A DNA stretch of 14,272 bases. Origin: Myxococcales bacterium. GTDB lineage: Bacteria > Myxococcota_A > UBA9042. Shown piece after piece: positions 1-14,272 of this stretch (its first letter is position 1; the number at the start of each line of letters is the position of its first letter). The stretch lies in contig JBBISH010000145.1 in assembly GCA_037441385.1 (NCBI GenBank), forward strand, positions 1 through 14,272, given 5' to 3'. The notes beneath the pieces were generated by a model. That model did no database searches, had not been told where the DNA came from, and was given only the letters and a program-made list of their open reading frames with translations. The position numbers and the translations under genes are program-made.

Positions 1-122
1 CGGACTCGAAGACCGACCGCTCAGACGCGGACCCGAACCGCGTAGCACGCGAACCGCCGGATGCGGACCCGCATGTCCGGTGGTGTGGGAGGGGCGTCGG
101 GCAACCGGCGCCCCTACCCGAT
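1..122 (+). mobile_element. 3' end of a group II intron, class IIC-like (domains V and VI); 5' part and any RT ORF lie upstream of the window
   Basis: Domain V hairpin at 53-84, ACCGCCGG-ATGCG-GACC-CGCAT-GT-CCGGTGGT, is short, has a CGC catalytic triad (55-57) and a 2-nt bulge. Domain VI at 87-119, GGGAGGGGCGTCGG-GCAA-CCGGCGCCCCT-A-CCC, has a GNRA loop and bulged branch A at 116. The element ends in ...CCCGAT (AY terminus) at 122. Confidence 0.93.
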
Positions 123-643: not shown

Positions 644-1192
644 ATGGCTGACCACGCCAGTGATACCCTGCCCTCAGCAACCAGCGCAGGTGGCGCTAGC
701 GCGCCAGAAGCGTGGGTCGGCTTTTGCCTGGACGAGTTGACGTTTGCCGTCGACCTGCGGCGCGTGGTGCGAGTGCTGCAAGTAGTGGAGATTACGCCGC
801 TCCCTGGCGCTCCAGCCGTCGTGGCCGGCGCCATCGGCTTGGCGGGCGAAGTCTTGCCAGTCATCGACTTGCGGGCGCGCCTGGGGCGTCCGCGTCCGCC
901 AGTGCGGCTCAGCGACCAACTGCTCATTGTGCAAGCGAAAAGCGGCACGGTTGCGCTACTGGCGGATACTACGGTAGGGGTGCTTTCACACGCTCCAGGG
1001 CCGCTGGCCTCAGACAACTATATGCCTCCAGAGCTACGGTCTCTAGAAGGAATATTTGTGTCCGAAGGGCAGCTCGTCTTGGTCTATGACCTAGAGCGAC
1101 TGCTGCGTCCAAACGAGGAGTCGTCTCTGCAAGCCGCGCTACTGGCAGCCAGGGACAACACCACCCCGGCCGCCGTGGCCCAGGAGCCGTGA
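644..1192 (+). CDS. cheW: CheW-family coupling protein (WspB-like)
   Basis: CheW motifs FAVDLRRVVRVL, ITPLPGAPAVVAGAIGLAGEVLPVIDL and LVLVYDLERLL; GGAG upstream; first gene of the cluster. Confidence 0.92.
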   Translation: MADHASDTLPSATSAGGASAPEAWVGFCLDELTFAVDLRRVVRVLQVVEITPLPGAPAVVAGAIGLAGEVLPVIDLRARLGRPRPPVRLSDQLLIVQAKSGTVALLADTTVGVLSHAPGPLASDNYMPPELRSLEGIFVSEGQLVLVYDLERLLRPNEESSLQAALLAARDNTTPAAVAQEP

Positions 1193-1195
1193 ACG

Positions 1196-2587
1196 ATGAC
1201 CGACCTGGCCACGCACCGCATCCGCGCGCTTAGCGCACAGGTCGCGAACCTGTTTGGGCTATACTTCCCAGCGGATCGCACGGCCGACCTGGAGCGGGCG
1301 CTCGGCCAAGCTGCGCGGCACCTGGGCGACAGCGACGCGGCGAACTTGTGCAACGCCTTGCTCCAGGATCGGCTCTCGGCGCCGCAGTGGCACGCGCTCA
1401 CGGCTCATCTCACAGTCGGCGAAACGTATTTCTGGCGCGATCCCGGCCTGTTCGCCACGCTCGAAAACACCCTGCTGCCAGAACTTGCCCAGCGCGCAAT
1501 CGGCGAAGCCCGCCCTCTGCGGCTGTGGAGCGCGGCGTGCGCCAGCGGCGAAGAGGCCTACTCGTTGGCCATCGCGTGCCTGCGAGCGCTCTCCGAGCCG
1601 GCCCGCAGCCGCGCCGCAGTGTGGGCGACGGACCTCAACGAGGCGGCACTCGCCAGAGCCGAGGCCGCGGAGTACGGTCCGTGGTCTTTGCGCGATGCCC
1701 CCGATTGGCTCCATCACTACGTGCCACAAGTTGACGATAGGCGCTTTCGCGTGGCACCGGCGGTGCAGAGGCTGGTCCGCTTCGCCACGCTGAATCTGGC
1801 TGACCCCGCGGCCCAGCCCCCCGCCTTGTGGGTGCCGTTTGACCTCATCGTCTGCCGCAACGTGCTCATGTACCTGACCCCAGAGCACCAACGCGCCGCG
1901 GTCGCCAAGCTGCGCTCGTGCCTCCGCGACGGCGGCTACTTGGTCACCGCGCCGGCCGAGGTAAATCGCGGACTATTTGAGCATTTCGAGGCCGAGGTCG
2001 TGGGCGGCAACACGGCATTTCGCCGCAACGACGCCGGGGTGCGCACGACGCCCGGGCCCGAATTACCAACAGTCGCCTGGCACCACCTCGTCGCCACGCC
2101 GGTCGAACACATTGGCGCTGAACTCGCCCAAGCCATCTTGCCCGCCGAACCGCCGCCCGAGCCCGCCGCCCAAGACCCAGCACCGGCCAAGCCAGAGCCG
2201 CAGGCGCTGGTCGACCATGCCCGGCAACTCGCCGATGCGGGCCGCCTGCCCGAGGCCTATGCCGCGAGCCTTGCTGCGGTGGCGTGCGCGCGCAGCGACC
2301 CGGCGGCGTACCTGCTGTGTGGCTTGATTGCGGCCGAGTTGGGTCGGCCGGGCGAGGCGGTAACCGCGGTAGAAAAAGCGCTATTTCTCGACAACGATCT
2401 GCTGGTCGCCCACCTCCTGCTGGCGCGACTGCACGGCAGCCTGGGTCACCCGCGTCGCAGCGCCCGCCACGCAGCGGTGGCCAAGCAACTGCTGGGAGCC
2501 CGCCCGCGCGACCAAGTGACGACGGACACGGCCGGCCTGACCAGCGGCCGCTTGCTCGAAGCCTGGACGGCTCTGGGGACATCATGA
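1196..2587 (+). CDS. cheR: CheR methyltransferase with C-terminal TPR region (WspC/FrzF-like)
   Basis: LTVGETYFWRD, WSAACASGEEAYSLA, ATDLN, FDLIVCRNVLMY and LRDGGYL motifs; Pro-rich linker; TPR-like AYLLCGLIAAELGRPGEAVTAVEKALFLD. Confidence 0.95.
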   Translation: MTDLATHRIRALSAQVANLFGLYFPADRTADLERALGQAARHLGDSDAANLCNALLQDRLSAPQWHALTAHLTVGETYFWRDPGLFATLENTLLPELAQRAIGEARPLRLWSAACASGEEAYSLAIACLRALSEPARSRAAVWATDLNEAALARAEAAEYGPWSLRDAPDWLHHYVPQVDDRRFRVAPAVQRLVRFATLNLADPAAQPPALWVPFDLIVCRNVLMYLTPEHQRAAVAKLRSCLRDGGYLVTAPAEVNRGLFEHFEAEVVGGNTAFRRNDAGVRTTPGPELPTVAWHHLVATPVEHIGAELAQAILPAEPPPEPAAQDPAPAKPEPQALVDHARQLADAGRLPEAYAASLAAVACARSDPAAYLLCGLIAAELGRPGEAVTAVEKALFLDNDLLVAHLLLARLHGSLGHPRRSARHAAVAKQLLGARPRDQVTTDTAGLTSGRLLEAWTALGTS

Positions 2588-2726
2588 GGCAGATTCAGGC
2601 GACGCCTGCTTGTAGGCTGAGACAATTCACCTGCTCTGCGGCAAGGTTGCGACCTCTTCGGCGCCGCTCGCTGACCGCCCCGACCCCCTGGTGCGCCCAA
2701 GGCTGGGCCGGCTGCGCGAGGTGTCC

Positions 2727-3338
2727 ATGACGGGAGCCCCGATTGACTGGCCGGCGCTCCGCGACCGTCTGAGCGCGACGGCGAGCGAGCAAGCGGACGA
2801 AGAACCGCGTCGCGTAGCTCAGATCCTGCGGCAACGGGCGCGGACCGCGGCACAAGTGCCCGTAAAGGCAAGCGATGTGCCCACCCTCAGCGTGCTGACC
2901 TTTGGGTTGGCCGGCGAGACCTACGCCCTAGAAACCAAGCACGTGCGGCAAGTGTTTCGCCTCCACCGGTTGACGCCCCTGCCCGGCACGCCGCCCCACG
3001 TCGCGGGCGTGACCAACCTGCGTGGCAATGTGCTGGCCGTCTTGGATCTGCGGAGCTTCTTTGACATTCCCACCCGCGGCCTGGCCGAGTTCGACCGCGT
3101 GGTCGTGCTCGGCGACCCAGCCCACGGCGGCTTTGGCTTGCTGACGGACAGCATCGATGGAGTCCGCGCGTTGCCGGTTGGCGAACTGGCCGCGAACTTG
3201 CCCACGCTGGGCGGTGTGCGGGCGCGCTATCTGATCGGCGTGACTGCGAGCGCTGTGGTAGTGCTCGACGGCGCCAAACTCTTGGCCGACCCGGGCCTCA
3301 AAGTCGACGCCGTCCGCGGGCGCACTGGGGCAGTCTGA
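2727..3338 (+). CDS. cheW: Second CheW-family protein with N-terminal extension (WspD-like)
   Basis: YALETKHVRQV, LTPLPGTPPHVAGVTNLRGNVLAVLDL, FGLLTDSIDG. Start placed at ATG 2727 (GAGG at 2718-2721) rather than GTG 2691. Confidence 0.92.
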   Translation: MTGAPIDWPALRDRLSATASEQADEEPRRVAQILRQRARTAAQVPVKASDVPTLSVLTFGLAGETYALETKHVRQVFRLHRLTPLPGTPPHVAGVTNLRGNVLAVLDLRSFFDIPTRGLAEFDRVVVLGDPAHGGFGLLTDSIDGVRALPVGELAANLPTLGGVRARYLIGVTASAVVVLDGAKLLADPGLKVDAVRGRTGAV

Positions 3339-3362
3339 CCGACACCATCGAGGAGGATGACG

Positions 3363-5006
3363 ATGAACTGGTTCAAAAACCTGAAGATTCGCAACAAGCT
3401 GCTGCTCGGGTTTGCGGTGGTGGTGGCCACCATGATCGCCCAGGCCTACTTGAGCTACGCGGCGCTGGCGTCGATGCAGACCGTCGAGCGCGAAGAGGTG
3501 GCGCCGGCCGCGGCCGCGCTTGTGCAAATCGCCAGTGTGGTTCAACTCGAACACGCGATTCGCAAGACCACCCTCGCCTACATCACCTACCGCGATCCGA
3601 CGCAACGAGCAGGGTTCAAGCGCGACCTAGAGGCCCAAGTGACCGAGGCCACCGTGGGCCTGACCGCTCTAAAGGCCCGCATCGAGGCGCACATGCCGAC
3701 CGAGCGCGCGCTCATGGCCAGTATCGACAAAGAAATCAGCACGTATCGCAGCGGTCGCGAGCGCGAGTTCGAACTGGTAGCTGCCGGCAAGGACGACGAG
3801 GCCGTGGCCGCGAGCGGCGGCGAACAGGCGCGGCAACACGCGGCGATTCTTGCCGATTTGGGCAAGCTGCAGACCAATATCGAAGCGGTCCATCAAGCCG
3901 CAGTGGCCGAATCGACCCGCGTGTTCGACGTGGCCGGAAGGCAGCTCGCCGCAGTGGGCGTGGCCGCGGTGCTGTTGGCGTTGATCATCGTGCAATTGCT
4001 CAATGCTCTGTTGGCGGTGCCGCTCCGCGAGGTTCGGCGCATCGCCAACGCTGTGGCTGGGGGCGACTTGACCGTGACCGTGGCCGTGGACGCCCGCGCC
4101 GATGAGCTGGGCGAGTTGCAGCGTGCCCTGGCGACGATGGTGGACAGCTTGCGCGCGCAGGCGCGGCAACTCCAGGAAGGGTTTGGTATTTTGGCTGCGG
4201 CGGCCTCCGAAATCCTGGCCACGGCCACCCAAGTCGCCACCGGCGCGACCGAGACGGCGACCGCCGTGAGCGAGACGTCGGCCACGGTAGAGGAGGTCAA
4301 GCAAACCGCGCACTTGGCCGTTCAGAAGGCCGGGGCGGTCATGGATGCGTCGCGCAAGGCGGCGGCGGTCGCCCAGACCGGACTCAAGGCGGTCGAAGGC
4401 ACCGTGGCCGGCATGGGCCGCATCCGCGAACAGATGGAGGGGATCGCCGGCACCGTGGTTCGCCTAGCCGAACAGGGTCAAACGATTGGTGAAATCATCG
4501 CGACGGTCAGCGACCTGGCCGAGCAGTCGAACCTTCTGGCGGTCAACGCGGCCATCGAAGCGGCGCGGGCTGGCGAGCACGGTCGCGGTTTTTCCGTTGT
4601 GGCCCAAGAGGTGCGCAGTTTGGCCGAACAGTCGCGCGAAGCGACCGCTCAAATCCGCACGATCCTGATGGACATTCAAAAGGCCACGAGCGCTGCAGTG
4701 ATGACGACCGAGCAAGGGACCAAAGCAGTGGCCTTGGGCGTGCAGCAATCCGCAGATGCTGGTGAGTCGATTCGGGCGCTTGCTGCCGGAGTGGCCGAAG
4801 CAGCCCAGGCCGGCACGCAAATTGCTGCGTCGAGCCAGCAGCAGCTGATCGGCATGGATCAAGTAGCCGTGGCGATCGGCAACATTCGCGGGGCCGCGTC
4901 GCAAAATATGTCGGGTACCAAGCAACTAGAAGAGTCGGCCCGCAGTCTGCATGTGCTTGGAACCAAGCTGAAAGCGCTGGTCGACGCCGAGCGGCTCGCC
5001 ACCTGA
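3363..5006 (+). CDS. Methyl-accepting chemotaxis protein (TM, four-helix-bundle-like sensor, TM, HAMP, signalling domain)
   Basis: [18 protein letters not shown]-terminus, two hydrophobic segments, HAMP (PLREV...GDLT...DELGEL), hairpin tip [38 protein letters not shown] at 3351-3356 favours ATG 3363 over ATG 3357. Confidence 0.96.
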
Positions 5007-5028
5007 GGACGGACCCCGAGGGATCGCC

Positions 5029-7443
5029 ATGGACAGCAAGCGAGAAGCATTCTTGGCCCGCCTGCGCGAGACCTTTCGGGTCGAGGCGGCTGAGCACCTG
5101 GAAGCAATCGGCCGCGGCGTGCTCGAGCTCGACCGCGAAACGGGTGTTGACCGGCAGGCCGTTGTCGAGCGGGTGTTTCGCGAGGCGCATTCGCTCAAGG
5201 GCGCGGCACGTTCGGTGAACCTGACGCGGGTCGAGGGGGTGAGCGCGGCCCTGGAAGGTGTCTTTGCGGCGGTCAAGCGCGGGGAGGTGCAGCCGTCACC
5301 TGGGCTCCTCGACGCGGTGCAAGAGGCCGTCGCGATCTTGGAGGTGGCGTGTGCCGGCTTGGCCGAACCGCCCGCCGAGCAGGTCACGGACCGCGAGCAT
5401 CGGGCAGTCGCCAAGCTGCAAGCGCTTGCGGGTGCCAGTGGCCCCCCGCAGCCCCGCGATGGGCCGACCCTGCCCCGCACTGCGCCAGCGCAGACGCCGG
5501 CACCCGTCGGCGCCAAGAGGAGCCAAGAGCAGGAGGCAGCTAAGGAATCACCGCCAACCCCAGCGGATCCCAGTCCCGGCGACAGCGTGCGCGTGGGCCT
5601 GGACAAGTTGGACCAGCTGTTGCGCGCGGCCGAAGGCCTGTTGCCCGAAAAGCTGGCGCGCCAAGCCTTGGCCAACGACCTGCGAGCGCTGACCGCCGAA
5701 GTCGCGGTGTGGAACCAGCGCTCGCGGCGCGAGGTCGGGCAGTTGCCCGCGGAGTTCACCGCGACCGCGCCGATGCACGCCGGGCCTGACGTGGCGGATC
5801 TGTTGCCGATGACGCTCCAGTTGGAGGCCACGCTGCGCAAGCTGAGCCAGGCTGCGCGCCGCGATGCATCGACCTTTGGCAGTGATCTGGACAGGTTGCT
5901 CGATCACGCGCGGTCGGTGCTCTTGCTCCCGTGCGCACAGCTACTGGGGCCGCTGGCGCTGACACTGCGCGAACTGGCCCGCGAGCAAGGCAAAGACGCC
6001 GAGCTCGTGATCAAAGGCGACGACATCGAGCTCGACCGGCGCGTGCTCGAGGCGCTCAAGGTGCCGCTCACGCATCTGATTCGCAACAGCGTGGATCATG
6101 GCATCGAGAAGCCGGATGTGCGCCGGCAACGCGGCAAGCCCGCGCGGGCGCGGGTGACACTGACGGTCCGACCGCTGGAAGGCCAGCGAATTTCCATCGA
6201 GTTTGCCGATGACGGCGGTGGCTTTGACTTGAGCCGGGCGCGGGCGGCGGCCGAACGCCACTTGCATCTGATCCCAGTTCCGTCCGAATCGGATCGAAAA
6301 CTCGGGCAATTATTCGGGCCCGAACCGGGGTCGCCGCCTGATTCTCGCCAGTTGCAGAACGCGTCAGAAAGTCCGTACAGGCGCGAATCAGGTGGGGTGC
6401 GTATGACGCCCGAGGCTGCGCGAGACCTGAGCGACGCCGAGGCGATCGAAATGCTGTTCCGCTCGGGGGTGAGCACCAGCCCGATGGTGACTGATCTTTC
6501 GGGTCGCGGCCTGGGCCTCGCGATCGTTCGCGAGAAGCTCGAACAGCTGGGCGGCAGCGTCACCGCCACGTCGCAGCCTGGCCAGGGCGCGCGATTCAAC
6601 CTGGAAGTGCCTTTGACTTTGGCGACCTTGCACGGCGTGCTGGTCCGCGCGGCAGATTTCAGCTTCATCATTCCGGCCGAGGGGGTGGTCGGTGTGGCGC
6701 GCTGGCGTTCGGGGGATCTGCGCAGCGCCGAAAACCGTCAGGTGGTCGAGTTTCGCGGCCGGCCGGTCGCGTGGGTGCGGCTGCGCGATGTGTTGGGGCT
6801 GGACGGGGCGGATCCCGAGGGCGTCGTGTCCCTGCCGGCGGTCATCGTTCGCTCGGGCGCATCCGAGGTTGCGCTACAAGTCGATGCCGTACTGGGCGAG
6901 CAAGAGGTAATGGTCAAAGATCTGGGTGCGCAACTGCGCCGCGTGCAGAACATCGCGGCGGCCTCAGTCAATGGTAGCGGCGCGGTGGTTCCCGTGCTGA
7001 GTGTCGCCGATCTGGTCGAGAACGCGCGCCTCACGGCTAGCCCAACGCAGCAAGAGGCGCCGTTTGCCGGCAAAGCGCAGCCGCGGCTGCTGATTGCCGA
7101 AGACTCGATCACGGCGCGGACCTTACTGAAAAGCATCCTGGAGGCTGCTGGTTACAGCGTGACGGCGACCGTGGATGGCCTGGATGCACTGACCCGGCTG
7201 AAGTCCGACCGTTTCGACCTGGTGGTCTCAGACGTCGACATGCCACGACTCAATGGCTTTGAACTGACCGCGCGTATTCGGTCTGACAAAAAACTCGCGG
7301 ATATCCCTGTCGTTTTGTGTACAGCGCTTGCCTCGCAGTCCGACAGAGAACATGGAGTGGAGGTCGGAGCCAGTGCCTACCTTGTCAAGAGTGACTTCGA
7401 CCAGGGCAATTTGCTCGACATCGTGCGACGGTTCGTTGGCTAG
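5029..7443 (+). CDS. cheA: Hybrid CheA-REC kinase (WspE/FrzE-like) carrying a 45-aa in-frame repeat-derived insertion
   Basis: Hpt FREAHSLKGAA; P3 SVRVGLDKLDQLL; N box HLIRNSVDHGIE; G1 DDGGG; F box LFRSGVST; G2 SGRGLGL; CheW-like P5; C-terminal REC (AEDS, SDVDMP, YLVKS). No P2 domain evident. Confidence 0.96.
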   Translation: MDSKREAFLARLRETFRVEAAEHLEAIGRGVLELDRETGVDRQAVVERVFREAHSLKGAARSVNLTRVEGVSAALEGVFAAVKRGEVQPSPGLLDAVQEAVAILEVACAGLAEPPAEQVTDREHRAVAKLQALAGASGPPQPRDGPTLPRTAPAQTPAPVGAKRSQEQEAAKESPPTPADPSPGDSVRVGLDKLDQLLRAAEGLLPEKLARQALANDLRALTAEVAVWNQRSRREVGQLPAEFTATAPMHAGPDVADLLPMTLQLEATLRKLSQAARRDASTFGSDLDRLLDHARSVLLLPCAQLLGPLALTLRELAREQGKDAELVIKGDDIELDRRVLEALKVPLTHLIRNSVDHGIEKPDVRRQRGKPARARVTLTVRPLEGQRISIEFADDGGGFDLSRARAAAERHLHLIPVPSESDRKLGQLFGPEPGSPPDSRQLQNASESPYRRESGGVRMTPEAARDLSDAEAIEMLFRSGVSTSPMVTDLSGRGLGLAIVREKLEQLGGSVTATSQPGQGARFNLEVPLTLATLHGVLVRAADFSFIIPAEGVVGVARWRSGDLRSAENRQVVEFRGRPVAWVRLRDVLGLDGADPEGVVSLPAVIVRSGASEVALQVDAVLGEQEVMVKDLGAQLRRVQNIAAASVNGSGAVVPVLSVADLVENARLTASPTQQEAPFAGKAQPRLLIAEDSITARTLLKSILEAAGYSVTATVDGLDALTRLKSDRFDLVVSDVDMPRLNGFELTARIRSDKKLADIPVVLCTALASQSDREHGVEVGASAYLVKSDFDQGNLLDIVRRFVG
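6272..6403 (+). mobile_element. 132-bp MITE-like palindromic element, copy 1 (in frame inside cheA)
   Basis: 7 mismatches to copy 3 over 132 nt by manual alignment; flanked by TGA (6269-6271) and TGA (6404-6406). Confidence 0.9.
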
Positions 7444-7500
7444 TACTAAGAACCCGAAGTTCTTTCCGGGTTAGGATCTTCGAATGGTTTGTAGCACTAG
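7440..7500. repeat. CTAG-flanked imperfect palindrome overlapping the cheA stop codon
   Basis: CTAGTACTAAGAACC versus the reverse complement of the right end CTAGTGCTACAAACC (12/15); inner CGAAGTTCTT / AGGATCTTCG arms; AT-rich relative to its surroundings. Confidence 0.6.
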
Positions 7501-7582
7501 CATTTTCAGTCAGCAAAGGGGGCGCGCCGCGCACTCTTGGACGCCCGCCCCCTGCGACCCGCGCGCGCGGCTAGCGCCGCGT

Positions 7583-7631
7583 AGTACACCGAGGGGCCGC
7601 AACTCGGAACGAACTTACGGCTTGGTGTACT
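7583..7631. repeat. Imperfect palindrome/hairpin upstream of cheB
   Basis: Outer stem AGTACACCGAG...CTTGGTGTACT and inner stem GCCGCAACTCG / CGAACTTACGGC. Confidence 0.6.
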
Positions 7632-7652
7632 TGGCCGCGAAGGGGGGGACGG

Positions 7653-8726
7653 ATGATCGATGTGCTGCTGGTCGAGGATTCGCCAACCACGGCGGCGCAT
7701 CTTGGCTTTCTCCTTGGCGAAGCCACGGGCTTTCGCCTGATCGGTGTCGCAAGTTCAGCGGAACAAGCCTTGCGCATGCTCGCGACGAGCAACCCGCAGG
7801 TGGTGTTGATGGACATCCACTTGCCAGGGATCGACGGCGTCGAGGCCACGCGGCACATCATGAGCACCCGACCGCTGCCCGTGGTCCTGTGCACCGCCAG
7901 CACCAATGCGGCCGACCTGCGCCTGGTCATGCGCTGCATGGAGGCCGGGGCCCTGGCCGTGGTCAAAAAGCCTCGCGGCTTTGGCGAGGACGACGGCGAC
8001 GCCGCCAAACTTATCGAAACGCTTCGACTCATGTCCGAAGTGCGGCTGGTGCGCCGCTGGTCCAGCACGCTCTTGGCCCCCGATTTGTCGAGTGGTGTCG
8101 CGCCGCCCGCGGCTCTGGCCGCGCCAGCCGTGGTCGCGATGGGCGCCTCGACCGGCGGGCCGCCCGTGCTGCAGCAGATCCTGGCAGAGCTACCGCGCGA
8201 TTTCCCTTTGCCGATCCTAGTGGTGCAGCACCTTGCCCCCGGCTTTGTCGCCGCGCTGGCGCAGTGGCTGGCGGCGGAGGCGCAGCGACCCGTGGAGGTC
8301 GCCCAACCTGGTGTGACGCCGCGGCCGGGGCACGTCTACTTGGCTGCCGACGACGGACACCTGGAGGTCGGCCCGCGCGGTCAACTTGTGCTGACGAGCG
8401 GTGCGCCCGTCAATGGCGCTCGGCCGGCAGTAGATGTGCTGTTTCGAAGCGTGGGCGACCGGTTTGGCGCCAACGTCATCGCCGTGTTGCTGACGGGAAT
8501 GGGGCGCGACGGTGCCGGCGAACTCAAGCGGCTGGCGGACCTTGGCGCGCTGACCATCGCTCAAGACGAGAAATCTTCTGCGGTTTTTGGCATGCCCGGC
8601 GCCGCTGTCGCGTTGGGTGCGGCCCGTAACGTCCTGGCGCCCGCCGCCATTGCGCAATTGCTTGCGCAGCGCGCCTGCCGACCCGAAGCCGGGGCGGGCA
8701 ACTCCGCGCGTGTCGGGGAGGTGTGA
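7653..8726 (+). CDS. cheB: CheB methylesterase (REC + esterase domain; WspF-like)
   Basis: REC (LLVEDS, MDIHLPGIDG, KKP); catalytic motifs GASTGGP, VQHL, LTGMGRDGA, AQDE and FGMP. Confidence 0.96.
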   Translation: MIDVLLVEDSPTTAAHLGFLLGEATGFRLIGVASSAEQALRMLATSNPQVVLMDIHLPGIDGVEATRHIMSTRPLPVVLCTASTNAADLRLVMRCMEAGALAVVKKPRGFGEDDGDAAKLIETLRLMSEVRLVRRWSSTLLAPDLSSGVAPPAALAAPAVVAMGASTGGPPVLQQILAELPRDFPLPILVVQHLAPGFVAALAQWLAAEAQRPVEVAQPGVTPRPGHVYLAADDGHLEVGPRGQLVLTSGAPVNGARPAVDVLFRSVGDRFGANVIAVLLTGMGRDGAGELKRLADLGALTIAQDEKSSAVFGMPGAAVALGAARNVLAPAAIAQLLAQRACRPEAGAGNSARVGEV

Positions 8727-8769
8727 TCTTGGCTGTACAGACGAGCAACTCGATTTCTTGCAGGCGTGA

Positions 8770-8901
8770 TACCAGTTCCGTCCGAGTCGGATCGAAAACT
8801 CGGGCAATTCTTCGGGCCCGAACCGGGGTCCCCGCCTGATTCTCGCCGGTTGCAGACCGGGTCAGAGAAGCCGTACAGGCGTGAATCAGACGGGGTTCGT
8901 A
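8770..8901 (+). mobile_element. 132-bp MITE-like palindromic element, copy 2 (between cheB and the kinase gene)
   Basis: 9 mismatches to copy 3 by manual alignment; flanked by TGA (8767-8769) and TGA (8902-8904). Confidence 0.9.
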
Positions 8902-8916
8902 TGAGTGAGGTTTGCG

Positions 8917-11900
8917 ATGCGTCCTGATTTCCACCAAGGTGCGCGTATCCTGGTCGTGGAAGACAGCCCGACCCAGCGCCAAGAGCTGCAGATGGTGCTC
9001 GAGGACGAGGGATTCACCGTGGCCGTTGCCGAGAACGGTCGCCTTGGACTCGACTTGGCCAAGTCGCAGCCCTTCGATCTGGTGATCACCGACGTCGTCA
9101 TGCCCGAGATGGACGGCTTTCAGCTGTGTCATTCGCTCCGCCGCGACGCGCGCTTGGCCGACATTCCGGTCGTGCTCCTGACTTCGCTGAGCGACGCTGC
9201 CGATGTGGTGCGAGCGCTCGAGGTGGGCGCCAACAATTTTGTGCGCAAGCCCTTGGCGCCCGAATACCTGCTGACGCGCGTGCACAGCATCCTGGCAACC
9301 GAGGAAGTGCGGCGGCAGTCGCGCGGTGCGCCGGTATCGGCGGTCCGTGTCGGCGGCAAGGCTTTTCAACTGCGCGCCGAACAGCTCGACCGGCTCGATG
9401 GGCTGCTGACGATGTTCGATGGCGCGGACCTGGAGCTGGAGGACCCGCCACCAGGCCTGGACCGGCCATTGCGCGTCTTGGCGGTGGACGACAGTGCGAC
9501 GAGCGCCGCGTTGGTCAAGCACGAGCTAGAGGCGCGGGATTTCTTGGTGACCGTGGCCACCGATGGTCGCGAGGCGTTGGCGCTGCTCGAGCAGGTGCGC
9601 GTCGACGCGGTCGTGTCGGACCTGGTGATGCCAAATCTGGACGGTCTGGGCCTGTGTCGGGCACTGCGCGCCGATCCCAGGTTCGAGCGACTGCCCGTTG
9701 TTCTGGTCTCGGCGCTGGCCGACCCGCTGGATTTGGTGGCTGGCATCGAGGCGGGCGCCGACCGTTTTGTCCGCAAGCCATGTCACGGTCCCGCGCTGGC
9801 GGGAACGCTGCGCCGCTTGGTGGCTCAGCGGTGTCACGATGCGCCGGAGCCCAAGGCGCCCGACGTCGACCTTGTCTATTCGGGTCAGCACTATCGAATT
9901 GGCGCTAGTCGTTTGCAGATGCTCGACCTGCTGATGTCGAGCTACATGAGCGCGATGCAGCAGAACGAGGAGCTTGCCCAGGCTCAGGCCGAATTGCGCC
10001 GCGCCAACGAGACCTTGGAGGCACGTGTCAGCCTGCGCACCCGGCAATTGAGCAGGCGCGTTCGCGAGTTGAGCTGCATGCACAGCGCGTCGCAGTTGTT
10101 CGCCCAGGTCCATGTGTCGGTCGATGCGGTGATCCCGCCGTTTCTCGACGTCATCGTCAAGGGTTTTGACTATCCGGGCCACGCGGCGGCGCGCCTGGCG
10201 CTGGATGGGCGCGAGTGGCGCACAGGCGAGTGGCGCACAGGTGCCACCGACCTTGCCGCGGGTGCTCACCTCGAGACGCCGGTGTTCGTGGCGGGGCAGC
10301 GGCGCGGTAGCTTGTCCGTGACGTGGCCAGCGCCTGTGCCGGGTGATGCGGCGGGCCTGCCAAGCTCAGAAGAGCGCGACCTGCTGACGAGCCTGGCCAA
10401 TTTGCTGGGTGAGCACCTTGCGATGCTGGAAGAAGAGCTGCGCCGGCAAGAGGCCGAGCGCGAGTTGCATCGCGCGGTGGCGCGCTTGGAGGCATTTTGG
10501 CAGTTCAGCACCCGAGAGGATGCCAGCGCTCCGGACTTGTACGCGGCCGCGGCGGAGCAGATGGTGCGGATGACCGCCAGCCCTCTGGGTCTTTGGGCCA
10601 CCGTCAGCGACCACGGCGCCGCGATGGGTGTCCAAGCTCTGTGTGTCGCGTTTGCGGGCGAGGCCAAGCAGGTCCCCGTGCCTGGGGTGTTGCCCGTGGC
10701 GCCGGGTAGCGTGTGGGCCCAGGTCGTGCGCAATCGAACGCCGGCCATCGTGGCGGATCCGGGTGCGCTGGAATTGGGCGAAGGGTGGCAACTGCCCGTG
10801 TCTACGGCGATTCGTCGCCTGCTGGTGGTCCCAGCTCTTGAGGGCGAGCGCGTGGTTGCGCTTGCCGCCGTGGCGGACCATGGCGCTCCGTACGATGACT
10901 CGGACGCCCGGCAGCTGGGCTCGTTTGTGAGCGCGGTGTTGACCCGCATCAAGTTGCGCAGCGGCCAAGAGGCACTGGCCAAAAGCGAAGCGCTGTTCCG
11001 GGGTTCAACCGAGGCGATGATGGACGCCCTTGGCGTGTTTCGGGCAGTGCGCGGGGCGGACGGTCGCGTGGACGACTTTGCGGTAGAGTACGTCAATCCC
11101 GCGGCGCAGGCCGCGGACGGTTGCTTCGATGGGACGTATGCTGACAAAATGATGAGTGAATTGTCGCCCATGTGGCAGTCGACCCAACTGGCCGAGGCGT
11201 TTGCTCGGGTGGTCGAGTCGAGCGAGCCTTTTGCCGGGGATGCCTGGGCGTGCGAGCCGGCCGACGCGGCTGCCGGCGAAACGTGTTGGTACGATCTCCG
11301 CGCTGGCAAACTTGGCGATGGCGTGATCGTCTCTTGGCGCAATGTGACCGAGCGCGTGCGCGCCCAGGCCGAACGAGACGCCGTTCAGGCCAACCTGGCT
11401 CAGACTGACCGATTGTCGAGCATGGGCCTGCTGGCAGCTGGCGTTGCCCACGAAATCAACAACGCACTCAACTACGTGACGCACTCGACGAGCTTGCTCG
11501 GTGCGCTGGTCCCCGCAGTGGTCGATCAGCTGCGGCGCAGCCACGCCATGATTGCCAGCATCTTTGGCCAGGACGAGTTGATCCAGGCGATGGGCGGCCC
11601 TCCCCTGGCGCCCGAACGTCTGGACAGCGCGGTCGAGATGGTGGCCATTGCCCAAAACGGCGTAAAGAGAATCGCGGCCATCGCGAGCAATCTAAGGACA
11701 TTTTCGCGATCCGATCAGAACGAACTCAGCTTGGTCGACCTGCGCGAGCCGCTGGAATACGCCACCACCGTGGCGTACAACGAGTACAAGTACCGCGCTG
11801 AATTGGTCAAAGAGTTTGGCGATGTACCAGCCGTCCGGGCGTCGGAGGGTAAACTAGCCCAAGTGTTCCTCAACCTCATCATCAACGCCGCCCACGCCAT

Positions 11901-12195
11901 CCCGGCGGGGCAAGGTCCCGGCCATCAGATCCGCATACGGACCTGGAACGACGGCGCTTGGGTGTGCGCATCTATCAGCGACACGGGCAACGGCATTGCA
12001 CCCGAAGACCGCGACCGGATCTTTCGGCCGTTCTTCACTACCAAGAAATCGGGTGTTGGCACCGGCCTTGGCCTGTCGATCTGCAAGAACATCGTCGAGA
12101 GCCTGGGGGGCACGATCGAGTTTGCCAGCGAGCAGGGGCGCGGCACCACCTTTGCCGTGCGCCTGCCGGTGCCCGCTCAGCCAGACGTCGCCTGA
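8917..12195 (+). CDS. Multi-domain sensor histidine kinase: REC-REC-coiled coil-GAF-like-GAF-PAS-HisKA-HATPase_c
   Basis: REC1 (VEDS, TDVVMPEMDG, RKP); REC2 (VDDS, SDLVMPNLDG, RKP); GAF-like LLVVPALEGERVVAL; PAS (YVNPAA...RNVTER); H box AGVAHEINN; N box QVFLNLIINAAHA; DTGNG; FFTTK; GTGLGL. Start placed at ATG 8917 (TGAGG at 8906-8910) rather than GTG 8905. Confidence 0.93.
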   Translation: MRPDFHQGARILVVEDSPTQRQELQMVLEDEGFTVAVAENGRLGLDLAKSQPFDLVITDVVMPEMDGFQLCHSLRRDARLADIPVVLLTSLSDAADVVRALEVGANNFVRKPLAPEYLLTRVHSILATEEVRRQSRGAPVSAVRVGGKAFQLRAEQLDRLDGLLTMFDGADLELEDPPPGLDRPLRVLAVDDSATSAALVKHELEARDFLVTVATDGREALALLEQVRVDAVVSDLVMPNLDGLGLCRALRADPRFERLPVVLVSALADPLDLVAGIEAGADRFVRKPCHGPALAGTLRRLVAQRCHDAPEPKAPDVDLVYSGQHYRIGASRLQMLDLLMSSYMSAMQQNEELAQAQAELRRANETLEARVSLRTRQLSRRVRELSCMHSASQLFAQVHVSVDAVIPPFLDVIVKGFDYPGHAAARLALDGREWRTGEWRTGATDLAAGAHLETPVFVAGQRRGSLSVTWPAPVPGDAAGLPSSEERDLLTSLANLLGEHLAMLEEELRRQEAERELHRAVARLEAFWQFSTREDASAPDLYAAAAEQMVRMTASPLGLWATVSDHGAAMGVQALCVAFAGEAKQVPVPGVLPVAPGSVWAQVVRNRTPAIVADPGALELGEGWQLPVSTAIRRLLVVPALEGERVVALAAVADHGAPYDDSDARQLGSFVSAVLTRIKLRSGQEALAKSEALFRGSTEAMMDALGVFRAVRGADGRVDDFAVEYVNPAAQAADGCFDGTYADKMMSELSPMWQSTQLAEAFARVVESSEPFAGDAWACEPADAAAGETCWYDLRAGKLGDGVIVSWRNVTERVRAQAERDAVQANLAQTDRLSSMGLLAAGVAHEINNALNYVTHSTSLLGALVPAVVDQLRRSHAMIASIFGQDELIQAMGGPPLAPERLDSAVEMVAIAQNGVKRIAAIASNLRTFSRSDQNELSLVDLREPLEYATTVAYNEYKYRAELVKEFGDVPAVRASEGKLAQVFLNLIINAAHAIPAGQGPGHQIRIRTWNDGAWVCASISDTGNGIAPEDRDRIFRPFFTTKKSGVGTGLGLSICKNIVESLGGTIEFASEQGRGTTFAVRLPVPAQPDVA
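10211..10240 (+). repeat. In-frame 15-bp perfect tandem duplication (EWRTG x2) in the kinase gene
   Basis: GCGAGTGGCGCACAG at 10211-10225 and 10226-10240. Confidence 0.9.
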
Positions 12196-12254
12196 ACCGC
12201 GCTGCCGATGCGGAACTTGCCCCCTGCGTCTCCGGCTGCCGGGCCGATAAGGAA

Positions 12255-12386
12255 TACCAATTCCGTCCGAATCGGATCGAAAACTCGGGCAATTCTTCGG
12301 GCCCGAACCGGGGTCCCCGCCTGATTCTCGCCAGTTGCAGAACGGGTCAGAAAAGCCGTACAGGCGCGAATCAGGTGGGGTGCGTA
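12255..12386 (+). mobile_element. 132-bp MITE-like palindromic element, copy 3 (downstream of the kinase, between convergent genes)
   Basis: Same length and orientation as copies 1 and 2; flanks GAA (12252-12254) and TAA (12387-12389), consistent with a TAA duplication carrying one substitution. Confidence 0.88.
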
Positions 12387-12432
12387 TAAAATCCTTTAAT
12401 TTCGACTAGTAGAAATTGGGGGGCATTTCTGG

Positions 12433-12468
12433 CCAGCTACTTGCACAGTACACCAGCTACTTGCACAG
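12433..12468. repeat. 16-bp direct repeat duplicating the last codons and stop of the minus-strand gene
   Basis: CCAGCTACTTGCACAG at 12433-12448 and 12453-12468, separated by TACA. Confidence 0.88.
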
Positions 12469-14272
12469 GCCCGACTGGCAGGTCTTGCCGGTCGCGCAGA
12501 CAAAGCCCTCTGGATACGCGGCGGTCTGGCAACCCAGCTTGACGTCACAGCTGTCCAGGGTGCACGGGTTGAAGTCGTTGCACACCACGTCGCTGCCCAC
12601 GCACTTGCCGCCGGTGCAGGTCTCGCCCGTAGTGCACACGTTGCCATCGTCGCAGCTGTTGCTGTGCGGCGTGTGGCTGCAGGTACCGCTGCAGGCCTCG
12701 GTGGTGCAGGGGTCACCGTCGCTGCAATCGTCCCAGGACTTGGTCCCGCAGCCGTTGACGCAGCCCTTGTTGGCCCAGGGGTCCATGCGCATGATCCAAG
12801 CCGAGTTTTCCTTGCCTGCCGGCTTGGCCTGGCCGACCACGACCAGCGCGCCCGTGTCGTCGCGGACGATGGCCCCCGTCTCGGGCGCCATGTACTCCAT
12901 GTTGGTGCCGCCGGCCACCGTGCTGAGGATCTTTCCCGTCTCGTCCACTCGCCACACCTGCAGAAAACCGCCCCAATCTGGCCCCTGCCGCCCGGCGAGC
13001 ACCACAGTGTCGTCGGGCAGAGCCACCAGCCCGCCTACATGCAGCTCGACCGCTGACGGCGGCGAGATGTTGAGCAGCACCTGACCATCGACCGACACGT
13101 GCGCCAACCAGCGCCCTGGGGCAGAGTTGTGGTCGCCGGCCGCCCACACCGTGCCGTTTGGTCCCACGGCCAGGGTGCGGAACTGCTCGCCGTCGCTGGT
13201 GCCAAGGCGAACATTGCGCACGAACTTGAGGCTGGGGTACTCAAAGAACGCGATCTCGCCGTCGGTGTTGCCAAATCCTCCTGCGCCCGGCGTGGAGTCG
13301 GCGGTGAGGCCTGCCGTCGCAATCAGCTTGGGTGTCACGAACGCGCACGCGTAGAACCGTTGCGGATCCGGTGGATCGTAAGCAGTGGCAGCCAGTTGCG
13401 TGCCGTCGCTGCCGTAGGCAAAGAGCACGCCGTGCTCCCAGGCGCCGCAGTTGCAGGTGCTGTAGCCGCACGCCACAAACTCCCCGTTTTTGTTCGGGTG
13501 GGCACTGGCGCCGGTGCCCAGGTTGGCTGCGCTGCTCTGGCCTGGAGTGGTCATCACCTTGCTCCACAGAACGGTGCCGTTGCTCGCCAGCCTTTCTACG
13601 ATGTACTTGGGTACGTTCTCGCTCGTGTAGCCCATCGCGCCGTAGGTGCCATCGCCCAGGTTGACGACCGCGGTGAGCACAGGCCCTGGCAGGTCGGTGT
13701 TGATCTCGGCGAGCGCAAACGTAGAGCCCCCGCGGCCCGCGTGCAGAAATAGGCTGTGGGCGGGGGCGCTCCACACGTTCTGCGTGCCGCGTCCCACCGC
13801 CACCACGCCGTCGCTGGTCGGGGCGACACCCAACAGGCCCTCTCCGCTGGATGTGCCGAACTTCGCCATCCCCTTGTCCCAGTAGCGCGGCTTGTTCGGG
13901 TCCGATTTGCAGGTGCCGGCGCTGCACACGTCTTCTTCGGTGCAGCTACCCGACACACACGCGGCGGTATTGGGCGCGAACTGGCAGCCCTTGACCTTGT
14001 CGCACGAGTTGTCGGTGCAGACGTTGCCGTCGTCGCACGGGCTGGCGACTTCGGGCAGGCAGACCCCGCCCTTGCAGTGGCTCAGGCTGGTGCAGGCGTC
14101 GCCGTCGTCGCAAGGGTCGGCGTTGTTGGCGTAGACGCACTTGGCGGTGACGAAATTGCAGCTGTCGTCGGTGCAGGGGTTCTTGTCGTCGCAGCTGAGG
14201 ACGCCCTTGCACTGCGCTTGGTTGCATACGTCCAAGAGCGTGCAGCCGTTGCCGTCGTCGCACGGCGTCGTG
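12457..14272 (-). CDS. Cys-rich repeat protein (CDDGNxCTxDxC repeats) with a central beta-propeller-like domain, probably extracellular; 5'-partial
   Basis: The frame is open to the window edge (…TTPCDDGNGCTLLDVC…). Multiple CDD(G/K)NxCTxD repeats flank a ~370-aa beta-strand/Gly-rich region (GTVLWSK, GTVWAAG, GALVVVG). The propeller assignment is inferred from these repeats. Confidence 0.85.
   Translation of the reverse strand, partial: TTPCDDGNGCTLLDVCNQAQCKGVLSCDDKNPCTDDSCNFVTAKCVYANNADPCDDGDACTSLSHCKGGVCLPEVASPCDDGNVCTDNSCDKVKGCQFAPNTAACVSGSCTEEDVCSAGTCKSDPNKPRYWDKGMAKFGTSSGEGLLGVAPTSDGVVAVGRGTQNVWSAPAHSLFLHAGRGGSTFALAEINTDLPGPVLTAVVNLGDGTYGAMGYTSENVPKYIVERLASNGTVLWSKVMTTPGQSSAANLGTGASAHPNKNGEFVACGYSTCNCGAWEHGVLFAYGSDGTQLAATAYDPPDPQRFYACAFVTPKLIATAGLTADSTPGAGGFGNTDGEIAFFEYPSLKFVRNVRLGTSDGEQFRTLAVGPNGTVWAAGDHNSAPGRWLAHVSVDGQVLLNISPPSAVELHVGGLVALPDDTVVLAGRQGPDWGGFLQVWRVDETGKILSTVAGGTNMEYMAPETGAIVRDDTGALVVVGQAKPAGKENSAWIMRMDPWANKGCVNGCGTKSWDDCSDGDPCTTEACSGTCSHTPHSNSCDDGNVCTTGETCTGGKCVGSDVVCNDFNPCTLDSCDVKLGCQTAAYPEGFVCATGKTCQSGLCK

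What the first reader, a model, noticed from the sequence alone, without database searches (positions are those of the whole stretch)
6269..6406. A 132-bp mobile palindromic element inserted in frame into the CheA ATP-binding domain, adding 45 aa
Seen in sequence: the element (6272-6403) is flanked by TGA/TGA, so the insertion totals 135 nt, or 45 codons. It encodes IPVPSESDRKLGQLFGPEPGSPPDSRQLQNASESPYRRESGGVRM. Deleting the element plus one TGA gives ...AAAERHLHLTPEAARDLSDAEAIEMLFRSGVST..., matching the typical CheA helical segment between the G1 box and the F/G2 boxes. All CheA catalytic motifs remain intact. Established: in-frame palindromic insertions into proteins are known for Rickettsia palindromic elements (RPEs). 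Inference: this is an RPE-like case of coding sequence gained from selfish DNA, next to the ATP lid of a chemosensory kinase, possibly from an undescribed repeat family.
Basis: partly seen in the sequence, partly recalled or inferred. Interest (0 to 1): 0.88.

Follow-up and report, generated by a model that had tools for sequence, protein, structure and literature searches.

The report
Small mobile repeat inserted in-frame in CheA
A 135-base copy of a small dispersed repeat sits in frame inside the ATP-binding domain of a chemosensory kinase gene and adds a 45-residue, probably floppy loop: a clean new example of a phenomenon already known from Rickettsia and other bacteria.

Summary
Window 6272-6403, flanked by TGA at 6269-6271 and 6404-6406, is one of three same-strand copies of a ~135-nt repeat in this 14.3-kb window. 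The others are at 8767-8904 and 12252-12389, both intergenic, 90-95% identical and without indels.

In the CheA-CheW-REC hybrid kinase (5029-7443) the copy encodes residues 415-459. All 119 retrieved homologues lack this segment. The N-box to G2-box spacing is 136 residues here against 89-92 in 109 homologues, a difference of exactly 45. Solved CheA P4 structures also lack it. AlphaFold models the insert at low confidence (pLDDT 42-60) between confident flanks (85, 87).

Six more proteins on six other contigs carry the element's translation, but only as terminal extensions, in a low-complexity tail or in domain-less ORFs.

The element is not one palindrome. It has a strong right-half hairpin and a weaker left one. 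It matches no Rfam, Pfam or NCBIfam family.

Verdict: a real, apparently undescribed MITE/RPE-like repeat family with an in-frame insertion in a catalytic domain. This is a new member of a known kind. Whether the kinase still works, and how the element moves, are untested.

The parts
5029..7443 (+). Host gene: hybrid chemosensory histidine kinase, 804 aa, with Hpt (P1), HATPase_c (P4), CheW-like (P5) and a C-terminal receiver domain
   Evidence: ORF list and translation. Pfam: Hpt 12-103, HATPase_c 346-530, CheW 536-665, Response_reg 688-799. NCBIfam CheA models match below their cut-offs. Foldseek matches CheA structures.
6269..6271 (+). Left flanking direct repeat TGA. It is out of frame: the TG of Leu414 (CTG) plus the A of Ile415.
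   Evidence: Sequence.
6272..6403 (+). Body of the repeat copy inside cheA. With one TGA it makes 135 nt, or 45 codons, encoding residues 415-459.
6404..6406 (+). Right flanking direct repeat TGA (the TG of Met459 plus the A of Thr460)
   Evidence: Sequence.
6334..6395 (+). Right-half imperfect hairpin of the element. It is the most stable structural feature and is present in all three copies on either strand.
   Evidence: Inverted repeat I2, 19 nt at 84%. RNA and DNA folds.
6274..6328 (+). Left-half weaker hairpin. It is predicted in the RNA consensus fold, but the DNA folds of the three copies disagree on it.
8767..8904 (+). Second copy, with TGA at both ends. It is intergenic, 41 nt after the cheB stop (8726) and 13 nt before the probable ATG (8917) of the downstream hybrid kinase.
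12252..12389 (+). Third copy, with GAA on the left and TAA on the right. It is intergenic, 57 nt after the hybrid kinase stop (12195) and before the convergent gene that ends at 12457.

Best explanation
A copy of a small non-autonomous dispersed repeat has inserted into the cheA coding sequence at a TGA trinucleotide that straddles two codons (CTG|ACG, Leu-Thr). The repeat is MITE-like, about 132-133 nt plus a 2-3-nt direct repeat. It has no gene of its own.

Shown:
- The inserted length is 135 nt, exactly 45 codons.
- The frame in which it is read has no stop, so the CheA frame continues.
- The insert adds a hydrophilic segment rich in Pro, Ser and Gly. It lies in the loop between the helix after the G1 box and the helix before the F box of the P4 (GHKL ATP-binding) domain.
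- The model keeps the P4 fold and places the insert outside it at low confidence.

Inferred:
- The insert is tolerated as a surface loop and the kinase is probably still active.
- Insertions that close the frame or disrupt the fold would be removed by selection, so copies inside genes survive only at permissive sites in an open frame. Three of the six orientation and frame combinations stay open.
- The element was moved by a transposase encoded elsewhere in the genome.
For: - Repeat family: there are three copies in the window at 90-95% identity, on the same strand and without indels. The element is 59.8% G+C against 66.2% for the window.
- More copies seen through translation. In the same frame: P0121, P0122, P0123, P0124 and P0125, at 56-84% identity. 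In a reverse frame: P0126, at 89%. All alignments are ungapped, and the six proteins lie on six other contigs.
- Insertion: 119 of 119 homologues lack the segment. The N-box to G2 spacing is 136 against 89-92 in the 109 scorable homologues. phmmer against the PDB splits the match into residues 311-409 and 463-540, although the CheA chains are continuous apart from 7 residues.
- Short direct repeats flank all three copies: TGA/TGA, TGA/TGA and GAA/TAA. The last two bases (GA/GA, GA/GA, AA/AA) match in 3 of 3 copies.
- Frames: +2, -0 and -2 are open. +1 and -1 have internal stops, and +0 is closed by the flanking TGA.
- Fold: the AlphaFold2 model from a 107-row alignment has mean pLDDT 82.3. The ten-residue blocks 411-460 score 60, 60, 47, 42 and 52, against 85 and 87 for the flanking blocks. 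The P4 part matches 1i58/1i59 with a target-normalised TM-score of 0.86-0.89. The alignments span 231-233 columns against targets of 180-189 residues.
- Peptide: GRAVY -1.13, and 19 of 45 residues are Pro, Ser or Gly.
- Catalytic motifs and all invariant alignment columns are present.
Against: - There is no close orthologue. The best is 50-52% identical, so no empty site can be compared at nucleotide level and dN/dS cannot be measured.
- The copies are 90-95% alike, so the insertion may be recent. An intact ORF is then weak evidence that the kinase still works.
- Terminal inverted repeats are weak (14 of 30 positions; only ATAC...GTAT at the tips). No transposase is in the window. The class of mobility is therefore open.
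- None of the other six protein-level copies lies inside a folded domain. They are terminal extensions, a low-complexity tail or domain-less ORFs. Translation of the element is not shown for any copy.
- The exact 20-mer of the element core was absent from all 185,579 species-representative genomes apart from one chance 23-nt match. The size and host range of the family are unknown.
- No reads were available, so the assembly could not be checked.
Confidence: 0.8

Rival explanations
1. The insertion is real but harmful. It cripples the kinase, and the gene is a young pseudogene that stays in frame by chance. Given that the inserted length is a multiple of three, half of the possible orientation and frame combinations keep the frame open.
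For: The copies are only 5-10% diverged, so there has been little time for decay to show. The insert sits in the catalytic P4 domain, 18 residues before the F box. No expression data exist. Three of six frames are open, so an open frame is not improbable.
Against: The 804-aa ORF is intact with all motifs. The insertion point is a loop between two helices, and the model keeps the P4 fold. The rest of the chemosensory operon is intact.
Confidence: 0.25
2. The element is not a cut-and-paste MITE with terminal inverted repeats. It is moved instead as single-stranded DNA, as IS200/IS605-derived or REP/RAYT-type elements are. On this view it inserts 3' of a short target (TGA or RA) and ends in a similar motif, so the apparent target duplication is not a duplication.
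For: There is a hairpin in each half of the element, and the terminal inverted repeats are weak. All three window copies lie on one strand. The left flank (TGA, TGA, GAA) and the right end (TGA, TGA, TAA) are alike but not identical in the third copy. The features of IS200/IS605 are recalled, not taken from a call.
Against: Three copies on one strand is expected by chance one time in four. P0126 carries a copy that is reverse to its ORF. No Y1 transposase or RAYT gene is in the window. No REP-type 20-40-bp palindrome with a GTAG or CGTC head is evident on reading the sequence.
Confidence: 0.2
3. Assembly artefact: a repeat was wrongly placed inside cheA when a metagenomic contig was assembled.
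For: The window appears to be a whole 14,272-bp contig (one search lists the longest contig for this protein as 14,272). Repeats are known to trouble assemblers (general knowledge).
Against: Both flanks continue the same cheA reading frame exactly, with a net gain of 45 codons and matching TGA repeats. The cheA copy has its own substitutions relative to both other copies. A collapse or chimera would not produce this.
Confidence: 0.03
4. The direction is reversed: the 45-residue segment is an old lineage-specific part of this CheA, and the intergenic copies are duplications of that piece of coding sequence.
For: Variable sites among the three copies fall mostly on third positions of the cheA reading frame. 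Of 15 sites, 9 are at position 3, 5 at position 2 and 1 at position 1.
Against: None of the 119 homologues has the segment. Copies occur next to or within unrelated genes on six other contigs, one of them in reverse. The boundaries are sharp and the same in all three copies.
Confidence: 0.02

Closest known systems
Rickettsia palindromic elements (RPEs; Ogata et al. 2000, as described in passages of the review PMC10969869 and in the table of PMC3184786)
   Same: - A short dispersed repeat. RPEs are given as about 105-146 or about 150 bp; this element is 132-135 nt.
- Hairpin-forming.
- Carries an open frame that encodes a conserved peptide.
- Found both between genes and fused in frame inside unrelated genes without closing them.
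- The insertion is predicted to be compatible with the host protein's fold.
   Different: - No sequence relation was found: nothing in Pfam or NCBIfam for any of four frames.
- The host is G+C-rich (66%), with weak hints of Myxococcota. It is not an AT-rich obligate intracellular Rickettsia.
- Only one convincing intradomain insertion has been seen here. The review reports that nearly half of 44 RPE copies lie within ORFs.
- The element has two hairpins rather than one long palindrome.
QMITE1 of Coxiella burnetii (PMC5896051; abstract and passages read)
   Same: A MITE with short (2-3 nt) direct repeats of variable sequence. It often overlaps annotated ORFs, mostly as C-terminal overlaps. That pattern resembles P0121 and P0126 here.
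   Different: QMITE1 is 300-400 bp with clear 21-28-nt terminal inverted repeats, and it encodes basic peptides. This element is about 135 nt, has weak terminal repeats, and encodes a near-neutral peptide (pI 6.3) rich in Pro, Ser and Gly.
Enterobacterial and pneumococcal small repeats with ORFs (ERIC, RU-3, BOX and others; passages of PMC3184786 and PMC10969869)
   Same: Small repeats whose open frames are found fused to the 5' ends, the 3' ends or the interior of protein genes.
   Different: No sequence similarity was tested or expected. Those families are defined in other phyla.
CheA P4 domains of Thermotoga maritima and E. coli (PDB 1i58, 1b3q, 2ch4, 8c5v)
   Same: The host domain matches these by sequence (E 1e-29 to 1e-31) and by fold (target-normalised TM-score 0.86-0.90 for isolated P4 domains).
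   Different: The solved proteins have about 7 residues where this protein has about 53 between the two matched stretches.

Membership tests
Rickettsia palindromic elements (RPE) | Short (about 100-150 bp) repeat dispersed in many copies | tested here: met
   Three copies of 132-138 nt in the window. Six further copies were seen as translations on other contigs.
Rickettsia palindromic elements (RPE) | Inserted in frame within protein genes, leaving the host ORF open | tested here: met
   cheA reads through 45 extra codons. These are absent from 119 of 119 homologues.
Rickettsia palindromic elements (RPE) | Palindromic: able to form a stable hairpin | tested here: inconclusive
   The right half forms a long imperfect stem in all copies. 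Whole-element fold z-scores run from -2.0 to -4.3. The element as a whole is not one palindrome, and 0 of 42 predicted pairs show compensatory change.
Rickettsia palindromic elements (RPE) | Sequence belongs to one of the described RPE families of Rickettsia | tested here: not met
   No Pfam or NCBIfam match at E up to 10 for the peptides of four frames. That these libraries hold RPE domain models is recalled, not checked. G+C content and gene content are unlike Rickettsia.
MITE (non-autonomous DNA transposon) | Small, without a transposase gene, in multiple dispersed copies | tested here: met
   About 135 nt. Copies lie at three unrelated sites in the window and on six other contigs.
MITE (non-autonomous DNA transposon) | Terminal inverted repeats | tested here: inconclusive
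   The best ungapped match of the left 30 nt to the reverse complement of the right end is 14 of 30. Only ATAC...GTAT at the tips and a CxGAxTCG block agree.
MITE (non-autonomous DNA transposon) | Target-site duplication flanking each copy | tested here: inconclusive
   TGA/TGA, TGA/TGA and GAA/TAA. A 2-nt repeat (GA or AA) is perfect in 3 of 3 copies. With three copies and similar sequences, a conserved element end cannot be told apart from a duplication.
MITE (non-autonomous DNA transposon) | A parent insertion sequence with the same termini in the genome | not testable with these tools
   Only this contig is available.
REP / BIME (RAYT-mobilised) | A 20-40-bp palindrome with a conserved GTAG or CGTC head (abstract of PMC3733652 as shown in the listing) | tested here: not met
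   On reading the three copies, a CGTC occurs at 6281-6284 but is followed only by a 9-nt palindrome. The main hairpin has no GTAG or CGTC head.
CheA-type chemosensory histidine kinase (host gene) | Hpt (P1) with the phospho-accepting His, a GHKL ATP-binding domain with N, G1, F and G2 boxes, and a CheW-like P5 domain | tested here: met
   Pfam domains, motifs (patterns recalled), PDB sequence and fold matches. The gene lies in an operon with cheW, cheR, an MCP gene and cheB.

The most novel reading that the evidence does not exclude
The repeat is more than tolerated junk. Its +2 frame may be under coding constraint across the family. Nine of 15 variable sites fall on third codon positions and one on first. 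The peptide is recognisable at 56-89% identity, without indels, in seven proteins. On this reading the element spreads a ready-made disordered module rich in Ser, Pro and Gly. In CheA this module would form a new regulatory loop beside the nucleotide pocket, for example a phosphorylation or docking site in an organism rich in Ser/Thr kinases. That would be domestication of selfish DNA into a signalling kinase.
Probability: 0.08. Interest if true: 0.75.

Novelty: new member of a known kind. Interest (0 to 1): 0.42.

Why it matters
This case shows, outside Rickettsia and in a G+C-rich free-living type of genome, that a small selfish repeat can land inside the catalytic ATP-binding domain of a signalling kinase. 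It leaves the reading frame, the motifs and the predicted fold intact. The site is well defined: the loop between the G1 and F boxes of CheA P4. That makes it a natural experiment on how much insertion a GHKL kinase tolerates, and one that can be tested with a simple autophosphorylation assay. It also adds an apparently undescribed repeat family. Annotation pipelines will read this family as protein, which produces spurious N- and C-terminal extensions such as those in P0122, P0123, P0125 and P0126.

Tried and rejected
- **Genome scan.** I scanned genome contigs for an invariant 20-mer of the element core. It returned one locus (L001, a Clostridia MAG) that shares only 23 nt, which is a chance match.
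- **Plasmids.** blastn (distant mode) of the element against the plasmid collection gave no match. The phage and E. coli collections were not searched.
- **Rfam.** At gathering thresholds on the whole window, only a group II intron match appeared elsewhere. At E up to 1 on 6220-6450 there was nothing.
- **Protein families.** Pfam and NCBIfam gave nothing for the peptides of four frames.
- **Covariation.** There are 0 compensatory pairs among 42. Three near-identical copies cannot test structure.
- **Promoter and terminator scan of 6000-12600.** It found 0 promoter-like sites. It found 6 terminator-like sites against 4.9 expected, and none marks the element consistently.
- **Internal translation start.** An AGGTGG followed by ATG lies at the element's 3' end, in frame with CheA. 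It would give only a truncated P4 fragment, so I did not pursue it.
- **RNA-level removal** (intron, intein or translational bypass). No feature supports it. There is no Rfam intron match at the element, and the flanking TGAs are out of frame.
- **Literature.** A search for 'miniature inverted-repeat transposable' with 'myxobacteria' gave 1 paper, unrelated. A search for CheA, 'repetitive element', 'in-frame insertion' and 'ATP-binding domain' gave 3 papers, all unrelated. Within the held library I found no report of this family or of a repeat insertion in CheA.
- **Not checked.**
  - Read support, expression, and the copy number in the source genome remain unknown.
Full report
**1. What is in the sequence**

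The window (14,272 nt, 66.2% G+C) carries a chemosensory operon on the + strand (Pfam; NCBIfam):
- cheW (644-1192)
- cheR (1196-2587)
- a second cheW (2691-3338)
- an MCP gene (3357-5006)
- a hybrid cheA (5029-7443, 804 aa: Hpt, HATPase_c, CheW-like and receiver domains)
- cheB (7653-8726)
- a large hybrid histidine kinase (ORF 8905-12195)

Inside cheA, TGA lies at 6269-6271 and again at 6404-6406, with 132 nt between them. The ORF reads straight through.

**2. It is a repeat, not a one-off**

blastn of 6241-6440 against the window finds two more copies on the same strand:
- 12254-12387: 94.8% over 134 nt, E 1e-57
- 8767-8904: 89.9% over 138 nt, E 1e-50

Aligned over 138 positions, the three copies differ at 10-14 sites and have no indels. 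Similarity stops sharply at both ends. Both extra copies are intergenic. One lies 41 nt after the cheB stop and 13 nt before the probable start (GAGG, then ATG at 8917) of the hybrid kinase. The other lies 57 nt after that kinase's stop.

The flanks are TGA/TGA, TGA/TGA and GAA/TAA. The last two bases (GA/GA, GA/GA, AA/AA) form a perfect direct repeat in 3 of 3 copies. The element is 59.8% G+C.

**3. It is an insertion relative to every relative found**

The protein search listed 119 homologues. The best are only 50-52% identical, so no close orthologue exists in that collection.
- In a MAFFT alignment, 118 of the 119 have 3 residues and one has 4 in the columns that span query residues 415-459.
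- Without any alignment, the distance from the DHG of the N box to the GRGxG of the G2 box is 136 in the query. It is 89-92 in 109 homologues (91 in 101 of them). Ten homologues did not match my exact motif strings and were left out. The difference is 45.
- phmmer against the PDB splits the match to E. coli and Thermotoga CheA into residues 311-409 and 463-540. The chains have only about 7 residues between the two stretches.
- Removing 135 nt restores ...ERHLHL-TPEAARDL..., the same length as the ...VRLGL-IAADEAARL... of the homologues.

**4. Anatomy of the element**

It is not one 132-bp palindrome.
- The repeat finder gives one good inverted repeat, 6334-6352 with 6377-6395 (19 nt, 84%).
- As RNA, the 152-nt stretch 6262-6413 folds to -63.7 kcal/mol. 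The z-score is -3.0, and 1 of 200 shuffles folds as well. The fold has two adjacent hairpins.
- As DNA, the right-half hairpin appears in all three copies on both strands. Whole-element z-scores run from -2.0 to -4.3. The left half folds inconsistently.
- The consensus fold has 42 pairs, none with a compensatory change. Three near-identical copies cannot test structure.
- Terminal inverted repeats are weak: 14 of 30 positions, with ATAC...GTAT at the very ends.
- Three frames read through the element and its flanks without a stop: +2, -0 and -2. Frames +1 and -1 have internal stops, and +0 is closed by the flanking TGA. Given that the inserted length is a multiple of three, half of the possible insertions would keep a host ORF open.

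**5. Copies elsewhere**

A scan of one genome per species (185,579 species) for an invariant 20-mer found only a 23-nt chance match in a Clostridia MAG. The plasmid collection, Rfam, Pfam and NCBIfam gave nothing.

Searching with the translated element did find more copies.

In the cheA reading frame:

| Protein | Length and domains | Position of the peptide | Identity |
|---|---|---|---|
| P0121 | 262 aa; DSBA domain 5-194 | 212-255, a C-terminal fusion | 84% |
| P0122 | 205 aa; no domain | 9-53 | 76% |
| P0123 | 83 aa; no domain | 13-48 | 67% |
| P0124 | 529 aa; Ser/Thr kinase domain 12-280 | 365-405, in the low-complexity tail | 63% |
| P0125 | 1110 aa; TPR and CHAT domains | 4-44, at the N terminus | 56% |

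In a reverse frame there is P0126 (840 aa, DUF2330 at 32-266). Its peptide is at 751-795, 89% identical. That is beyond a sub-threshold MYXO-CTERM sorting signal at 660-688 (16.7 bits against a cut-off of 20), so the ORF is probably over-extended.

All six are singleton clusters on six different contigs. All alignments are ungapped.

The family therefore exists beyond this contig and has diverged. However, cheA is the only case seen inside a folded domain.

**6. Effect on the protein**

AlphaFold2 with a 107-row alignment gives mean pLDDT 82.3. The ten-residue blocks from 411 to 460 score 60, 60, 47, 42 and 52. The neighbouring blocks score 85 and 87. The insert lies between model helices 401-412 and 461-465.

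Foldseek matches the P4 part to isolated Thermotoga CheA P4 domains. The target-normalised TM-score is 0.86-0.89 for 1i58 and 1i59, over 231-233 alignment columns against targets of 180-189 residues. That is the fold plus an excursion.

The peptide has GRAVY -1.13 and pI 6.3, and 19 of its 45 residues are Pro, Ser or Gly. H54, the N box (349), G1 (394), the F box (477) and G2 (492) are intact (motif patterns recalled). The query has every invariant column of the alignment. The insert ends 18 residues before the F-box Phe. It is therefore near, but not in, the region I recall as the ATP lid, between the F and G2 boxes.

**7. Most likely mechanism**

A non-autonomous mobile repeat was moved by a transposase encoded elsewhere. 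It inserted at an out-of-frame TGA that spans the Leu-Thr codons (CTG|ACG) of cheA.

Because the inserted length is 45 codons and the frame read is open, translation continues. A probably disordered loop is added at a permissive inter-helix position of P4.

- Shown: the repeat family, the precise 45-codon gain, the open frame, the intact motifs and the predicted fold.
- Inferred: the mode of mobility, translation of the insert, and retained kinase activity.

**8. Rivals**

- A recent, in-frame but inactivating insertion, that is, a young pseudogene. I cannot exclude this. The copies are only 5-10% diverged, so an intact ORF says little (confidence 0.25).
- Single-strand transposition of the IS200/IS605 or REP type rather than a classical MITE. 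It is consistent with a hairpin in each half, weak terminal repeats and the imperfect flank repeat of the third copy. With three DNA copies this cannot be tested (0.2).
- Assembly artefact. This is unlikely, because both flanks continue one reading frame and the cheA copy has private substitutions (0.03).
- The cheA segment as the source of the repeat. This is contradicted by its absence from all homologues and by its spread to unrelated loci (0.02).

**9. Comparison with what is known**

Passages of the review PMC10969869 state that in-frame fusions of intragenic MITEs with genomic ORFs are 'not unusual'. According to the same passages, RPEs of about 150 bp take this to a high frequency, and the insertions are predicted to be compatible with protein folds.

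Passages of PMC3184786 list repeats fused internally, at 3' ends and at 5' ends of genes in several phyla.

The abstract and passages of PMC5896051 describe QMITE1 of Coxiella, with 2-3-nt direct repeats and frequent overlaps with ORFs.

The present element behaves like these. It is not a sequence member of any family I could test.

Two literature searches found no report of this family or of a repeat insertion in CheA within the held library.

**10. Verdict**

It is a new member of a known kind: an apparently undescribed small repeat family with one clean in-frame insertion in a kinase catalytic domain. Interest is moderate. The phenomenon is established, but the case is unusually clean and can be tested biochemically.

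One weak oddity keeps a bolder reading alive. Of the 15 sites that vary among the three copies, 9 fall on third codon positions of the cheA frame and 1 on first positions. This holds even though two of the copies are intergenic.

Noticed in passing
window 52-122 (+): Rfam match to the group II catalytic intron model (RF00029): 43.2 bits against a gathering score of 40, E 8e-06, full model length. It lies at the very start of the contig, so the 3' end of a group II intron seems to sit there with the rest cut off by the contig edge. The overlapping ORF 61-414 has no family match.
   Followed up: no
window 7484-8629 (+) versus 7653-8726 (+): The longest ORF in this stretch (381 aa) has no family match. 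The overlapping 357-aa ORF in another frame is the real gene, cheB (NCBIfam NF009206, E 9e-96, just below its cut-off). This is a reminder that the longest ORF is a poor guide in DNA this G+C-rich.
   Followed up: yes
window 644-12195 (+): The gene order is cheW, cheR (463 aa, with a weak TPR-like C-terminal part), cheW, MCP, cheA-cheW-REC hybrid, cheB, then a 1096-aa hybrid kinase with receiver domains (two matched stretches), GAF, PAS and HATPase_c. From recall, this resembles Wsp-type or 'alternative cellular function' chemosensory systems rather than a flagellar one.
   Followed up: partly
window 8727-8928 (+): The open frame of the intergenic copy at 8767-8904 is the same frame as cheB and stays open from the cheB stop (8724-8726) through the element (read from the sequence printed). 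Read-through of that TGA would append the element's peptide to CheB. This is probably coincidence (a one-in-three chance).
   Followed up: no
window 12433-12468 (+): A 16-nt direct repeat (12433-12448 and 12453-12468, period 20) spans the stop codon (12457-12459) of the convergent gene 12457-14271(-). It looks like a small tandem duplication that includes the stop.
   Followed up: no
window 12457-14271 (-): This is a large ORF of at least 604 aa, which may continue upstream beyond the window end. It has Dicty_CTDC cysteine-rich repeats (Pfam E 6e-14) and no NCBIfam family. With the sub-threshold MYXO-CTERM signal in P0126, it is a weak hint that the repeat family lives in Myxococcota-like genomes.
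   Followed up: partly
proteins P0122, P0123, P0125, P0126 (other contigs): Gene callers appear to have read copies of this repeat as protein. The results are domain-less ORFs that begin in the element (P0122, P0123), an N-terminal extension (P0125), and a C-terminal extension past a sorting signal (P0126). These are likely annotation artefacts caused by the element's open frames.
   Followed up: partly
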